DNA of 64,000 nucleotides from the NCBI RefSeq assembly GCF_009914755.1, contig NC_060939.1. One strand, 5' to 3'. The notes under the pieces were generated by a model. That model did not search any database, was not told where the DNA came from, and worked only from the letters and a program-made list of their open reading frames with translations. Shown here in pieces: positions 44,852 to 49,244 of the stretch. Position 1 is the first letter of the stretch. Each line of letters starts with the position of its first letter. This DNA is from the human T2T-CHM13v2.0 reference genome, Homo sapiens. The position numbers were made by a program, and so were the translations under genes.

Positions 44852-47800
44852 GTGTTTGCAGGTCAAGGAATTCAACATTCAGGAAAAAACAGTAAGCTAG
44901 CCAATTAGTTTTCAGGTTTCTTTAAGGATCTGGGGTCATGCCAATAAACTTATAGATCTCTCAGAGGCCTTATAGCTCTCTTATTCTCACTTAATCTCAC
45001 AAACACCTCAAGATGAATAACAAAGTCATCATTTTATTTTCTTTTCCTTTTTTTTTTGTGAGGCAAGGTCTAGCCCAGGCTAGAGTGCAGTGGCACAATC
45101 ACGGCTCACTGCAGCCTTGACCACTGAAGCTCAAGCGATCCTCCCACCTCAGCCTCCCAAGCAGCTGGGACTACAGGCATGTGCCACCATGCCTGGCTAA
45201 TTTTTAAATTTTTTTGTAGAGATAAGGTCTCGCTATGTTGCTCAGGCTGGTCTTAAACTCCTGACCTCAACTGATCCTCCTGCCTTGGCCTCCCAAAGTG
45301 CTGGCATTACAGGCACGAGCCACCATACCTGGCCGGAAGTCATCATTTTCAATGAGACATTAAAGAGAAGACAGAACCAGAATAAAGTAAGAATGTACAA
45401 AATCACAAGAGAAAAAATATAAAAAAGAGAAAGGAAGAGGCTTTCTAGAGAAACAAAAAAAAAAGACAGAAAATAAATAGAGAAATGGCAGAAGATAAAG
45501 TGAACATGAGTAACAGGCAAGGGACAAAGAGTTAACATCATCTTCTCTCTCCCTTTAAGGTGGGTAGCTCTGTTCTCATCTGTCCAGCAAATCTAGTTGA
45601 GGGTCATAATTATACTCGTGCCTATAATCTCCCAGAGATCTACACTCAGTCCCCTCATGCCATCTTAAGGAACCTGCCATCAGTTGCCTGCACTATCCTG
45701 AATTAAGAGGACCTTACAATTGGTTGAGAAGCTCATATGGTTTGCTTCCAAAAGCAATGACTCTCCATTTTCAGAACATTATTCTCAAGTAGAAGTTGCC
45801 AGAGAAAAACAGGAGGGGAATTGGTGACTACTAAAAATGGTACCTGCTCTCACGTTCAATGTTCTTTTCTTTTTGAGACAGGGTCTCACTCTGTCACTCA
45901 GGCTGGAGTGCAGCGGTGCGATCTCGGCTCACTGCAACCTCCGCTTCCAGGGCTCAAGCAATTCTCCTGCCTCAGGCTCCCGAGCAGCTGGGACTACAGG
46001 TGCAAGCCACAATGCCTGATGAATTTTTGTATTTTTTGTAGAGATAGGGCTTCGCCATGTTGCCCAGGCTGGTCTCAAACTCCTGAGCTTAAAGCAATCT
46101 GCCCATCTCAGCCTCCCAAAGTGCTGGGGTTACAGGCATGAGCCACTGCACCCGGCTCAATTTTCAGAATGAGAAGCAGATACAAAAATAAGGGATTTGG
46201 CACTTGCTCTGCCCTTACAGAGCCGTAGCTGTTACCTAGTCATTGGGTTATCTTACTGTACAATCCATTCCCACCTCCCTCTTCTCTCAACGCTTGCAGA
46301 GGTTCACAAAACACTTAGAAAGATACTAATCTAGAAAAGCTTTGGCTATTTAGTCCAAGGACACTTTAACTGAAAACTCTTATACAGCAACCCACTCAAA
46401 TTCACAAAACAATTTTGTTTACATTCACAGTTTTTCAACAGTCACAATCTATCAGGTCAGTAATAATGAAAACTGCTAATAGGACCAAATATATAAAAAC
46501 CAAAACAAATTCAATAAGATAAAGTCCAAAAACTTGAATCCTTTAGCCATCAGGCCAAGCCCCTAATATATAAATTTAATTTTAAAGAGCAGGAGAAAAA
46601 GATTGCTCAAATAGAAGCTTGTTTGTTATCTGCTGGTTGACTCTGCCTGTAAATGAATCAATTATTTATTCTGAAGGGTGGAAATCTTCAAACAATTCCA
46701 AGCCAGCTTTTGAATGAGGCAAGAAAACACTCACTCCATAAGGGTTAAAACCTGCTGAACATACAGAGTTTCAGAAAAGTCAAAGCACCTTACATAGTTC
46801 CTGAAATCAAATTTTAAGGATCAAAATCTTTTCATAAGTTTCAAAGCATTTAAGAATTGCTAGAGGCTAAAAGGCAGAGCAGGACCAGCACAGCCAGTGA
46901 CTCTAACACTAAATGATTAGGTACACAAACAAGAAGTGCAAAATCAAGATGAAATGCTCACTTAAAAGAAAAAAGCCAAAAGATTTTATCTCGAGCTCGG
47001 TCCCCAGTCACCAATTTCCAATTTGATTTTTAAAATTAAAAAAATAGAAACAAAAAAAACTGCTTACCTGAACCCTCAGGTTGTTAAGACTTAGCATGCA
47101 CTGTTCCCCACACTAAGGAGTAATTAACAAAACTGATAAAAACTCTTTGCAGAAAGATCAATGGAAACCCATCTCCAAGGGGAGAAAATGGACCATCATC
47201 AAACAAGCCAATGAGAAGGATATCCACCAGCACAAGGCAGTGTCTAGGAAAGCCAAGGGGATAAAGGCCAAGGAAGCAAGATCAGTCTGGGCCTGCAGAC
47301 AAAGAAAAAGAAGTGGTGAAAAACAGATGTCTAGAGAGGCACAGAGAAGAAACCACCACATGATTCTGCATTTACATAATCACTGGAAAGTTTTTGCATT
47401 GAACTGAAAGAAAATAAAAAGAACATTTGACACCTAATCATTCTTCCCTTCTTATAAACCATCACATAGAATATACAGCTATAAGCATTTCACATAAATT
47501 GTCATTTACAATCTCGAAACATACTGCTAAGTACGAGTTTTTCATATATAAAGATCCATGTTAACAAGTGACCATATTCCAAAAAAGTTCTAATGTTTAT
47601 AAGCCCCATCCTTAATCTATCATTTCCTATTATTGCAATTTTGGCTACAAGTCTGAAAAGACTTTTCTCGTATTTAAAAAAAATTACTGCATCATATACA
47701 AAGAATTATTAATTTCTAAAATTATAATATTTTACAAATAAGAGCTCACCCCAAAATAAAATGTAAGGCAATTATCTGTCTGAAAAACTATGCTGCATGT

Positions 47801-47875
47801 TTCCAGGAGTTTATATAGAGTATGTTTTTTATATAACCCTAATTACCCAATCAACAGGCATTACTGAAAGGATAT
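44852..47875 (-). other. TMEM87A: U12-type (minor spliceosome) AT-AC intron with two alternative donors (47875, 47223)
   Basis: Donors ATATCCTT; branch site TTCCTTGAC (44870-44862), branch A about 12 nt from the terminal AC (44853-44852); no pyrimidine tract. Confidence 0.93.
47224..47292 (-). CDS. TMEM87A: TMEM87A mutually exclusive exon B (AQTDLASLAFIPLAFLDTALCWW)
   Basis: 69 nt, phase 0-0; tttttctttgtctgcag acceptor; donor TGG|ATATCCTTC (U12 consensus). Confidence 0.93.
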
Positions 47876-47947
47876 CCATAAAATAACACAGGCGTCAACT
47901 GCTGAGAGGGCCAGGTTTACTATCAGAGTCAAGGGATAAGAAAAATA
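47876..47947 (-). CDS. TMEM87A: TMEM87A mutually exclusive exon A (YFSYPLTLIVNLALSAVDACVILW)
   Basis: 72 nt, open, phase 0-0; pyrimidine tract + TAG acceptor; donor TGG|ATATCCTTT (U12 consensus); hydrophobic and alignable to exon B. Confidence 0.85.
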
Positions 47948-49244
47948 CTATAGCAACAGCAGAAGAAAGAAAATGAAATTGACAGAGGGTTAAAGTTGTT
48001 AGAAGTCTAAGAGAATTACATACAGAGGACAGTGTGATTTGAAAAGCAAATGTGCATCCACAAAGTGTTTGATTTAAGAGGCAATTTATTGCAAAACATA
48101 TTGAGCCGTTTTCTTGTGGGCAAAGCCAAGTTTATAGTTTTTACAATATTGAATCTAATAGGTTGCTGTGGAGTCTTTTTTTAAAAAATAAGAAAATTAA
48201 TTGAAATGGCCTAGAGAACCTTATACTTCTTCATATTAATCCAGTGGTAACATAAATTTCTTTTCTCCTCTTTTTTAAGGAAGAGGTATCACTCTGTTGC
48301 TGGAGTGTAATGGCATGATCATGGCTCACCGCAGCCTGAACTCAATCAGTCCTTCCACCTCAGCCTCCCAAGTAGCCAGGACTACAGGCACCCACCACTG
48401 CTCCCAGCCATAAATTTCTTTATCACTTAGATTCTTTGGTTTCCTTCCCTGGCAAAGGGAATAATTATACAATTCTCAAAAATGGTGTGAAACTTCATTA
48501 GCTGCATTTTTTTTTCTTTTTTTGAGACGGAGTCTTGCTCTGTCGCCCAGGCTGGAGTGCAGTGGCACGATCTCGGCTCACTGCAAGCTCCGCCTCCCGA
48601 GTTCACACCATTCTCCTGCCTCAGTCTCCCAAGTAGCTGGGACTACAGGCGCCTGCCACCACGCCCAGCTAATTTCTTGTATTTTTTTTTTTTTTAGTAG
48701 AGACAGGGTTTCACCATGTTAGCCAGGATGGTCTTGATCTTCTGACCTAGTGATCCGCCTGCCTCGGCCTCCCAAAATGCTGGGATTACAGGCATGATTA
48801 CACACCCAGCCTCATTAGCTGCATTTTAAGGAAGTTTTTGAAACTGAAATGTTAAGAAACAACAGTTACTTTAGATTAGATTAACTAGTAAGTGTATGAC
48901 TCCAAAGTCTGCCATTTACACAAGAATTTCAGTCTGGATTTCAGTCTGGATTCCATTGATTAGAAAAAGAAAAAAAAATGCAAGTCTACTGCTTGGGAGG
49001 AGGAACTAAAACAATTAGCAATTTGGAGACAGGTGGAAAAGCATTCATTCGGGCACACACTAAATTTACAAAGCTCTAATAGATTTAAAAGAGAACATGA
49101 ACTATACATATATTTTGAAAATCAGAGCCCAAAAGTGACTTAAAGCAAACAGAAAGAAGCCCACAGACATTTCCAATCCACACTGTCAAGATGTAAACAA
49201 TATAATTGAACTGACCACAGAAAATGAGATTAAGCAGTACTAAC

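What the first reader, a model, noticed from the sequence alone, without database searches (positions are those of the whole stretch)
44852..47960. Two-spliceosome switch: duplicated TMEM87A exons made mutually exclusive by U2/U12 incompatibility, swapping a transmembrane helix
Seen: two phase-0 exons (47947-47876, 72 nt; 47292-47224, 69 nt) each have a U2 pyrimidine-AG acceptor but end TGG|ATATCCTT, a perfect U12 AT donor. The next exon has a U12 branch site (TTCCTTGAC) and an AC acceptor. The 583-nt intron between them is a hybrid (U12 donor, U2 acceptor, no U12 branch site near it), and skipping both would join a GT donor to an AC acceptor. The peptides YFSYPLTLIVNLALSAVDACVILW and AQTDLASLAFIPLAFLDTALCWW align with L, L, D and W conserved. 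Established: hybrid introns enforce mutual exclusion in JNK (MAPK8/9/10) exon 6a/6b. Inference: an ancient exon duplication gives two versions of the luminal loop and first half of TM5 of a protein reported as a cation or mechanosensitive channel, and the choice may track minor-spliceosome activity. The exon pair may well be annotated already. I do not know of a functional comparison of the two helices.
Basis: partly seen in the sequence, partly recalled or inferred. Interest (0 to 1): 0.8.

Follow-up and report, generated by a model that had tools for sequence, protein, structure and literature searches.

The report
Known U2/U12 mutually exclusive TMEM87A exons
Two alternative TMEM87A exons that encode the start of transmembrane helix 5 are kept mutually exclusive because the intron between them mixes signals for the two spliceosomes; the sequence shows this clearly, but it has been published since 2019-2021.

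Summary
Exon A (47947-47876, 72 nt) and exon B (47292-47224, 69 nt) are phase 0. Each has a pyrimidine-rich AG acceptor and ends TGG|ATATCCTT. The next exon (from 44851) follows a perfect U12 branch site 11 nt from an AC terminus. The 583-nt intron between A and B has no U12 branch site.

The mechanism is not new. Olthof et al. 2019 (PMC6717393) and Akinyi & Frilander 2021 (PMC8329584) describe TMEM87A and TMEM87B as JNK-like interlocked U2/U12 mutually exclusive exon pairs. RefSeq annotates exon A.

- Exon B is residues 355-377 of all four solved structures. It covers the luminal TM4-TM5 loop and the first two thirds of TM5, including lipid-binding D371 and acyl-chain contacts C375 and W376.
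- Both exon types occur in TMEM87A, TMEM87B, sharks, teleosts and sea lamprey, so the pair dates at least to the vertebrate ancestor. The B type looks ancestral.
- An annotated U2-only route (AG acceptor, exon start 44840) bypasses the module.
- Both isoforms need the same U12 acceptor and near-identical U12 donors, so the A/B choice is unlikely to report minor-spliceosome activity.

No functional comparison of the two helices was found.

The parts
49245..49338 (-). Constitutive upstream exon (exon 11 of NM_015497.5). It ends in phase 0 and is followed by a U2-type GT donor (GGG|GTTAGT).
   Evidence: hub annotation table
47948..49244 (-). U2-type GT-AG intron (1297 nt) removed when exon A is chosen.
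   Evidence: 80% pyrimidine in the 25 nt before the TATAG acceptor
47876..47947 (-). Alternative exon A: 72 nt, 24 codons, phase 0-0. It encodes the A-type (proline-free) version of the TM4-TM5 loop and the start of TM5. RefSeq lists it among exons of other transcripts.
   Evidence: hub table; A-type isoforms in 55 of 120 TMEM87A models
47868..47875 (-). U12-type AT donor of exon A (ATATCCTT, then T at +9).
47293..47875 (-). Hybrid intron of 583 nt: U12 AT donor, U2 pyrimidine tract with CAG acceptor, and no U12 branch site within 1 mismatch anywhere in it.
47224..47292 (-). Alternative exon B: 69 nt, 23 codons, phase 0-0. It is exon 12 of NM_015497.5 and encodes residues 355-377 of the solved TMEM87A chains.
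47216..47223 (-). U12-type AT donor of exon B (ATATCCTT, then C at +9). The same 12-mer is listed for human TMEM87A in the minor-intron table of PMC6717393.
44852..47223 (-). AT-AC U12-type intron (2372 nt) of the selected transcript. The exon A isoform removes 44852-47875 (3024 nt) instead.
44862..44870 (-). U12 branch site TTCCTTGAC, with the branch A 11 nt from the AC terminus. It is shared by both alternative donors.
44743..44851 (-). Constitutive downstream exon (exon 13), encoding the rest of TM5. It contains an annotated alternative U2 AG acceptor at 44842-44841 (exon start 44840).
   Evidence: hub table
44840..44842 (-). Alternative U2-type acceptor (TTATTAG|CC). Joined to the exon 11 donor it shifts the frame, with a stop after 94 codons. 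Joined to the exon 10 donor at 52352 it removes 174 nt in frame and reproduces the C-terminal 329 residues of the 497-aa protein that its source names human isoform 13.

Best explanation
This is the TMEM87A copy of a known device: a JNK-type interlocked U2/U12 pair of mutually exclusive exons.

The GT donor of exon 11 can only pair with one of two U2 acceptors, in front of exon A or exon B. The single U12 branch site and AC acceptor in front of exon 13 can only pair with one of two U12 AT donors, behind exon A or exon B. The intron between A and B has a U12 donor but a U2 acceptor and no U12 branch site, so neither spliceosome can remove it and A and B cannot be joined. Exon definition across the chosen exon (U2 components at its acceptor, U11 at its donor) most likely couples the two choices. 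That coupling step is inferred.

The product is a 7-TM GOLD-domain protein with one of two versions of the luminal TM4-TM5 loop and the first ~21 residues of TM5. Both versions keep the family-wide Asp (D371) and the final Trp (W377). The A type lacks P366 and replaces the acyl-chain contacts C375 and W376.

The pair arose by tandem exon duplication no later than the vertebrate ancestor, and the B type resembles the ancestral sequence. Which exon is used is probably set by acceptor strength (exon B has CAG|G, exon A has TAG|T) and by tissue factors, not by the amount of minor-spliceosome activity.
For: Sequence: all six splice signals are at the stated places. There is a perfect branch site 11 nt from the AC, and none within 1 mismatch in the 583-nt hybrid intron. 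Both exons are multiples of 3, so frame and NMD cannot police co-inclusion. The 583-nt spacing is too long for steric exclusion.

Literature: PMC8329584 states that TMEM87a and TMEM87b have the MAPK8/9-like interlocked arrangement giving mutually exclusive exons 11/11a (passages). PMC6717393 shows mutual exclusion of Tmem87b exons 11/11a in mouse by sashimi plot and RT-PCR, and lists Tmem87a among genes with the same class of event (section 11). Its tables list TMEM87A as a minor-intron gene with these very motifs.

Protein models:
- Of 120 TMEM87A-set models, 55 carry an A-type and 28 a B-type segment; 37 did not fit the anchors.
- Of 120 TMEM87B-set models, 52 are A-like and 32 B-like; 36 did not fit.
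- Seven isoform pairs are identical outside the segment.
- Only 2 of 504 models contain both segments, and both are joined through an 'ISF' read-through of the AT donor, so they are prediction artefacts.

Age:
- Sea lamprey isoforms with identical flanks carry A-like (P0388, P0390) or B-like (P0389, P0393, P0394) segments.
- Sharks as a group carry both types, in different species.
- Teleosts also have both; Poecilia mexicana has them as isoforms X1 (P0401) and X2 (P0413).
- Of the 120 sequences in that set, 93 are A-like and 27 B-like.
- 72 of 105 family-wide representatives have the B-type xPx motif.

Structure: exon B is residues 355-377. D371 binds the PE head group and gluconate, and C375 and W376 contact the acyl chain at the TM5-TM6 gap. 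The Asp and final Trp are conserved in at least 90% of 73 diverse sequences of both types. AlphaFold models of an isoform pair give the same TM4 (333-358) and TM5 (363-398 against 362-396) with block pLDDT of 87-96. The A-isoform model matches the four solved structures at target-normalised TM-score 0.92-0.93.
Against: - No RNA-level data for human TMEM87A could be examined here, so mutual exclusion and real use of exon A in human tissue rest on annotation and on the literature.
- In the PMC6717393 tables the relevant human event (CAT3) passes filters in only 2 of 8 tissues, bone marrow and lung. The index values of 1.0 look like junction-offset artefacts, so they give no usable ratio.
- The experimental proof in that paper is for Tmem87b, not Tmem87a.
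- Mammalian A-type peptides of TMEM87A and TMEM87B are no more alike (3.4 of 23 identical) than A is to B within a gene (4.9 of 23). A single origin of the A type therefore rests on non-mammalian intermediates that score about equally against all classes, and on shared order and architecture.
- The AlphaFold models share one alignment containing both exon types, so their agreement is weak evidence.
- Rare U12-type AT-AG introns exist (recalled), so the hybrid intron is unlikely to be spliced rather than strictly unspliceable.
Confidence: 0.9

Rival explanations
1. Exon A is a decaying or rarely used relic. It is annotated mainly because gene predictors find an open, homologous exon, and essentially all functional TMEM87A carries exon B.
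For: The RefSeq selected transcript and all four solved structures use exon B (hub table). The functional papers read used only isoforms 1 and 3 (passages). The human CAT3 event passes filters in 2 of 8 tissues. Most A-type proteins found are predicted 'isoform X' models. Exon B has the more consensus-like acceptor.
Against: The A-type segment keeps its frame, its length of 24 codons and a highly conserved C-terminal half across placentals and monotremes (25 distinct sequences, most positions at least 80% conserved). A-like segments persist in TMEM87B, turtles, teleosts, sharks, hagfish and lamprey. It keeps the family-invariant Asp and Trp. In Tmem87b the corresponding switch is tissue-regulated and validated by RT-PCR.
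Confidence: 0.1
2. Mutual exclusion is enforced mainly by something other than spliceosome incompatibility: competing RNA structures (docking and selector sites), steric hindrance, or NMD of double-inclusion and double-skip products.
For: Double skipping through the alternative AG acceptor shifts the frame, with a stop after 94 codons, so NMD may remove that product. PMC5740500 reports U2/U12 incompatibility for only 5 of its human MXE clusters, so other mechanisms are commoner in general (passage).
Against: A+B co-inclusion would stay in frame (72+69 nt), so NMD cannot police it. The A-B intron is 583 nt, far above the <50-nt donor-to-branch-point criterion for steric interference used in PMC5740500. 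An inverted-repeat scan of 44700-49400 found only short A/T-rich arms of at most 25 nt; this is a weak test on a single sequence. The splice-site incompatibility is complete and explicit.
Confidence: 0.07
3. The A/B choice is a read-out of minor-spliceosome activity.
For: Both exons are embedded in U12-dependent splicing. TMEM87A shows minor-intron retention in U4atac-mutant patient cells (mean delta-PSI 23.7%; passage of PMC6800510). The donors differ at +9, T against C.
Against: Either isoform requires exactly one U2 and one U12 reaction, the same branch site and AC acceptor, and donors identical from -3 to +8. Lowering U12 activity should therefore hit both alike. The expected results are intron retention or the U2-only routes through the AG acceptor at 44840, not a shift from B to A. 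No data for or against were available here.
Confidence: 0.1

Closest known systems
TMEM87B exons 11/11a (mouse and human paralogue; Olthof et al. 2019, PMC6717393; also listed as a differentially used human MXE pair in supplementary tables of PMC5740500)
   Same: It has the same architecture, the same position in the protein, and the same order, with the A-like exon upstream and the B-like exon downstream. Both exon types are found in mammalian TMEM87B models. Both B types share the IPL...LD...CWW pattern, with 13.1 of 23 positions identical on average.
   Different: In TMEM87B both exons are 72 nt. The switch was validated by RT-PCR and is cortex-enriched. The A-like peptides of the two paralogues have diverged strongly (3.4 of 23 identical).
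MAPK8/9/10 (JNK) exons 6a/6b (7a/7b)
   Same: Two homologous in-frame exons, each with a U2 acceptor and a U12 donor. They are interlocked with an upstream U2 donor and a downstream U12 acceptor, and hybrid-intron incompatibility gives mutual exclusion (review passages).
   Different: The JNK exons encode part of a kinase domain, and the choice is regulated by Nova in neurons. Here they encode half a transmembrane helix of a GOLD-domain 7-TM protein, and the regulators are unknown. Tmem87b was not a Nova2 CLIP target.
Nested U2/U12 'twintrons' (Drosophila prospero, SRSF10, NCBP2, CENATAC)
   Same: The major and minor spliceosomes compete on one pre-mRNA segment. The TMEM87A route through the AG acceptor at 44840, next to the AC terminus at 44852, is of this kind.
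   Different: In twintrons the choice is U2 against U12. In the A/B switch both outcomes use both spliceosomes.
Mutually exclusive exons enforced by competing RNA structures (Dscam, ATE1) or by frame and NMD
   Same: The outcome is the same: exactly one exon of a duplicated array is included.
   Different: No selector or docking complementarity was found, and co-inclusion would be in frame.

Membership tests
U12-type (minor) AT-AC intron | 5' splice site /ATATCCTT immediately after the exon | tested here: met
   Both exon A (47875-47868) and exon B (47223-47216) are followed by it.
U12-type (minor) AT-AC intron | Branch site TTCCTTRAC about 10-15 nt from the 3' end, with a weak pyrimidine tract | tested here: met
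   Perfect 9-mer at 44870-44862 with the branch A 11 nt from the terminus. Pyrimidine content is 56%, against 80-84% at the U2 acceptors.
U12-type (minor) AT-AC intron | AC at the 3' terminus | tested here: met
   ...AAACAC|A at 44853-44852.
U12-type (minor) AT-AC intron | Dependence of splicing on the minor spliceosome | not testable with these tools
   Literature only. TMEM87A is in the minor-intron table of PMC6717393. Retention is reported in U4atac-mutant cells in PMC6800510.
JNK-type interlocked U2/U12 mutually exclusive exon pair | Two homologous tandem exons of the same phase, each with a U2 acceptor and a U12 donor | tested here: met
   Homology is weak (4 of 23 identical) but includes the family-invariant Asp and Trp.
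JNK-type interlocked U2/U12 mutually exclusive exon pair | U2 donor upstream, one U12 branch site and acceptor downstream, and an intervening hybrid intron without a U12 branch site | tested here: met
JNK-type interlocked U2/U12 mutually exclusive exon pair | Transcripts contain one exon or the other, never both | tested here: inconclusive
   Only indirect evidence. 2 of 504 protein models hold both segments, and both show the 'ISF' donor read-through of a prediction artefact. Seven clean isoform pairs were found. No RNA reads were available. The claim is published for TMEM87a/b and shown experimentally for Tmem87b.
JNK-type interlocked U2/U12 mutually exclusive exon pair | Regulated (tissue-dependent) choice | not testable with these tools
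   The review asserts it. The supplementary values for Tmem87a/TMEM87A are all 1.0 and not informative.
TMEM87 / LUSTR (GOLD-domain seven-TM, GOST) family | Sequence membership and 7-TM fold | tested here: met
   Exon B is identical to residues 355-377 of 8HSI, 8CTJ, 8KB4 and 8HTT. Hits carry PF06814 and PF21901. The A-isoform model matches those structures at target-normalised TM-score 0.92-0.93.

The most novel reading that the evidence does not exclude
The two versions of the first half of TM5 have been kept side by side since before lampreys and jawed vertebrates split, in both TMEM87 paralogues, and may give the GOST cavity two functional settings. The B type has the helix proline (P366) and the Cys-Trp pair that holds a phospholipid acyl chain in the TM5-TM6 lateral gap. 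The A type lacks all three but keeps the head-group-binding Asp. The A/B choice could therefore change lipid occupancy, opening of the lateral gate or cargo and ion handling in a cell-type-specific way. No paper found in these searches has compared the two.
Probability: 0.3. Interest if true: 0.5.

Novelty: already known. Interest (0 to 1): 0.2.

Why it matters
As a splicing mechanism it adds nothing. It is one of the few textbook-style cases in which U2/U12 incompatibility enforces mutual exclusion, and it is already described for TMEM87A and TMEM87B.

Its practical value lies elsewhere:
1. Structural and electrophysiological work on TMEM87A (Elkin1/GolpHCat) has used only exon B proteins. 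The alternative exon rewrites residues at the lipid-binding cavity and lateral gate, and it has been conserved for roughly 500 million years (age recalled).
2. In minor-spliceosome disease the expected read-outs at this locus are intron retention and the U2-only routes through the 44840 acceptor, not an A/B shift.
3. Many database protein models mis-handle this AT-AC intron: 49 of 504 read 'ISF' through the donor. That matters for anyone using those sequences.

Tried and rejected
I used the 61-aa exon 53647-53465 instead.
- Competing RNA structure: the inverted-repeat scan of 44700-49400 found only short A/T-rich arms. I dropped the idea, noting that one sequence is a weak test.
- Quantifying A against B use from the supplementary tables of PMC6717393: rejected. 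The Tmem87a/TMEM87A indices are 1.0 in every tissue for four event classes. This most likely arises because the AT-AC junction can slide (the intron starts AT and exon 13 starts AT), so 'canonical' reads are never counted. That explanation is my inference.
- Showing that the A-type exons of TMEM87A and TMEM87B are orthologous from peptide similarity: the mammalian peptides are too diverged, and the non-mammalian intermediates do not discriminate. I therefore claim only presence of the pair in lamprey, not a tree.
- A profile search with short windows around the A-type segment: given up, because it would have needed typed peptide stretches.
- Whether invertebrates have the exon pair: not testable.
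- Appendix Fig S18 of PMC5740500 (the five U2/U12 cases) is a PDF and could not be read. TMEM87A is absent and TMEM87B present in the three supplementary tables held.
- An EST study (PMC2941758) lists a TMEM87A cassette exon as associated with normal CNS but does not say which exon. I treat it as a lead only.
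Full report
**What is in the sequence**

On the minus strand, exon A (47947-47876, 72 nt) and exon B (47292-47224, 69 nt) each follow a pyrimidine-rich tract and an AG. 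The tracts are 80% and 84% pyrimidine in the last 25 nt. Each exon ends TGG and is followed by ATATCCTT.

The exon upstream ends at 49245 before GTTAGT. The exon downstream begins at 44851, after TTCCTTGAC (44870-44862), ten further bases and an AC terminus. The branch adenosine lies 11 nt from the intron end, and the tract there is only 56% pyrimidine.

The coding exons upstream in the window sum to 558 nt, and the frame stays open through either exon, so both exons are phase 0-0.

ATATCCTT is not rare in this window: 6 on the minus strand and 4 on the plus strand, against about 2 expected per strand. TGGATATCCTT occurs only at these two exon ends. The 583-nt intron between A and B contains no site within one mismatch of the U12 branch-site 9-mer.

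**What it is**

The arrangement leaves only two productive paths.
- The GT donor at 49245 pairs with the acceptor of A, and the AT donor of A pairs with the AC acceptor. Exon B is then removed inside a 3024-nt U12 intron.
- The GT donor pairs with the acceptor of B, so exon A is removed inside a 1952-nt U2 intron. The AT donor of B then pairs with the AC acceptor across the 2372-nt U12 intron of the selected transcript.

Joining A to B would require removing an intron with a U12 donor, a U2 acceptor and no U12 branch site. Co-inclusion would be in frame (141 nt), and the intron is too long for steric exclusion. An inverted-repeat scan shows no selector-like complementarity. Spliceosome incompatibility is therefore the only evident barrier.

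**It is already in print**

- PMC6717393 (Olthof et al. 2019; section 11 read in full, plus supplementary tables) describes mutually exclusive exons 11/11a around the minor intron of mouse Tmem87b, with sashimi plots and RT-PCR. It lists Tmem87a among the ten minor-intron genes with the same class of event. Its tables carry the human TMEM87A donor and branch-site 12-mers seen here.
- PMC8329584 (Akinyi and Frilander 2021; passages) states that TMEM87a and TMEM87b, like MAPK8/9, have interlocked U2- and U12-type introns that give mutually exclusive exons 11 and 11a, and shows this in its Figure 3.
- PMC5740500 (Hatje et al. 2017; passages and three supplementary tables) reports five human MXE clusters with U2/U12 incompatibility and lists TMEM87B as a differentially used MXE pair. 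The appendix figure naming the five could not be read.
- RefSeq annotates exon A (hub table).

**Conservation of the pair**

A search with the 61-aa exon 53647-53465 returned 120 listed TMEM87A proteins, almost all mammalian. Between conserved anchors, 55 carry a 24-residue A-type segment and 28 the 23-residue B-type. The other 37 are truncated or aberrant. The B type is almost invariant. The A type varies in its first half but is highly conserved in its second half, and it is present in monotremes.

A second search showed the same two types in mammalian TMEM87B: 52 A-like, 32 B-like and 36 unmatched of 120. Seven isoform pairs are identical outside the segment.

A third search, seeded with a representative that turned out to be from a lamprey, listed 120 proteins from lampreys, hagfish, sharks, rays, teleosts, turtles and monotremes: 93 A-like and 27 B-like.
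- Sea lamprey isoforms X3 and X4 (P0388, P0390) are A-like and X2 (P0389) is B-like. Their flanks are identical, and each lists one contig of the same length.
- Poecilia mexicana X1 and X2 differ in the same way.

The pair therefore existed in the common ancestor of living vertebrates.

Among family-wide representatives at 50% identity, 72 of 105 with an ungapped aligned segment have the proline-containing B-type motif, including most of the distant ones. The B type thus looks like the ancestral sequence and the A type like the diverged copy.

One caution applies. Mammalian A-type peptides of the two paralogues are no more similar to each other than A is to B, and the non-mammalian intermediates score about equally against all four classes. 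A single origin of the A type is likely from shared order and architecture, but the peptides do not prove it.

**An indirect trace of the donors in other species**

ATATCCTTy translates as Ile-Ser-Phe. Of the 504 protein models fetched, 49 read ISF directly after the alternative segment instead of the normal continuation. This is what a gene predictor produces when it runs through an AT donor it does not recognise.

The trace follows both A-like and B-like segments, in TMEM87A, TMEM87B, two lampreys, three teleosts and a sturgeon. It also follows three unnamed representatives whose sequence downstream of the segment resembles the distant, unnamed representatives rather than the named vertebrate proteins.

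The only two models that contain both segments (P0273, P0130) are joined through such a read-through. They give the order A-like then B-like.

**What the exons encode**

Exon B is residues 355-377 of all four solved TMEM87A entries: 8HSI, 8CTJ, 8KB4 and 8HTT. Exon A matches no solved chain.

In PMC11239671 and its preprint (passages):
- E347 belongs to TM4.
- D371 of TM5 coordinates the phosphate and ester oxygens of a bound phosphatidylethanolamine, and also gluconate.
- C375, W376 and F379 of TM5 contact the acyl chain that protrudes through the TM5-TM6 lateral gap.
- TM4 plus TM5 span P324-R392.

Aligned from the C-terminal end, the A type keeps the Asp and the last Trp. Both are conserved in at least 90% of 73 diverse sequences. 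The A type lacks P366 and has aliphatic residues in place of C375 and W376.

AlphaFold models of an isoform pair that differs only in this segment (P0119 and P0102) give the same helices and confidence. The A-type model superposes on the solved structures at target-normalised TM-score 0.92-0.93. Both models used one alignment containing both exon types, so this shows compatibility, not equivalence.

The functional papers found used isoform 1 (exon B) and N-terminally different isoforms only:
- PMC7173973, PMC11239671 and the preprint 10.1101/2023.01.03.522544 (passages).
- PMC9711517, which has no occurrence of 'isoform' and reports no channel activity in proteoliposomes.

Searches combining TMEM87A or Elkin1 with mutually exclusive, minor intron, alternative splicing, isoform and TM5 found no comparison of the two helices.

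First, the choice between A and B is not a contest between the two spliceosomes. Each outcome needs one U2 and one U12 reaction, the same branch site and acceptor, and donors identical from -3 to +8. The visible difference is at the U2 acceptors: CAG|G for B against TAG|T for A. Reduced minor-spliceosome activity should cause retention, as reported for this gene in U4atac-mutant cells, rather than a shift between A and B.

Second, there is a U2-only way round the module. An annotated AG acceptor 11 nt inside exon 13 gives an exon start at 44840.
- Joined to the exon 11 donor, it shifts the frame, with a stop after 94 codons. A marmot model, P0009, has this form.
- Joined to the exon 10 donor (GTAAGT after 52352), it removes 174 nt in frame. 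This reproduces exactly the C-terminal 329 residues of the 497-aa protein named human isoform 13 by its source (P0032). That product lacks 58 residues covering TM4 and most of TM5.

These routes, not A against B, are where the balance between U2 and U12 should show.

**Limits**

No eukaryotic genome or RNA-seq collection was available. Use of exon A in human tissues, absence of co-inclusion, the splice signals in other species and the state in invertebrates were therefore not tested directly.

The supplementary indices for Tmem87a/TMEM87A in PMC6717393 are 1.0 throughout and probably reflect junction sliding at the AT...AC|AT boundary (my inference). The only usable fact is that the human exon B skipping event passes filters in bone marrow and lung, 2 of 8 tissues.

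**Verdict**

The feature is real and correctly read, the mechanism is already known, and the gene annotation already holds both exons. Remaining interest lies in the untested functional difference between two very old versions of a cavity-lining helix.

Noticed in passing
window 52352 (GTAAGT donor) joined to 44840 (alternative AG acceptor): An annotated all-U2 bypass of the U12 module skips exon 11, exon A and exon B plus 11 nt of exon 13. That removes 174 nt in frame. The window-derived product is an exact suffix (329 aa) of the 497-aa protein named human TMEM87A isoform 13 by its source (P0032). It would lack TM4 and most of TM5.
   Followed up: yes
window 47898-47919 (minus strand): A 22-nt piece inside exon A is listed among 'exons of other transcripts'. 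It follows an AG (TGATAG|) but is followed by TG, not by a GT or AT donor, so it does not look like a normal exon.
   Followed up: partly
window 47153-47224 (plus strand, VPS39-DT): The last exon of one antisense lncRNA model follows a plus-strand AG and ends exactly at the base that is the last base of TMEM87A exon B on the other strand. This may reflect a mis-stranded TMEM87A-derived cDNA rather than a true antisense end.
   Followed up: no
proteins P0001-P0504: 49 of 504 database protein models read 'ISF' straight after the alternative segment. This is the translation of the ATATCCTT donor and shows that gene predictors often run through this AT-AC intron. Two models (P0273, P0130) wrongly contain both segments for the same reason.
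   Followed up: yes
supplementary tables of PMC6717393: Tmem87a/TMEM87A and many other AT-AC or minor introns have mis-splicing indices of exactly 1.0 for paired cryptic 5' and 3' site classes in all tissues. For TMEM87A the intron starts AT and the next exon starts AT, so the junction can slide by two bases. The listed human intron is also 1 nt shorter than in this window (2371 against 2372). The values probably reflect alignment offsets, not biology.
   Followed up: partly
PMC2941758, results table: An EST-based screen lists a TMEM87A cassette exon as associated with normal CNS, in a list that also holds known mutually exclusive pairs (PKM2, SLC25A3, TPM3). The exon is not identified.
   Followed up: no
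window 45024-45336 and 48497-48801: The two masked repeats flanking the exon A/B module do not form a long inverted pair. The scan found only poly-A/poly-T arms, so there is no obvious looping-out structure around the two exons.
   Followed up: partly
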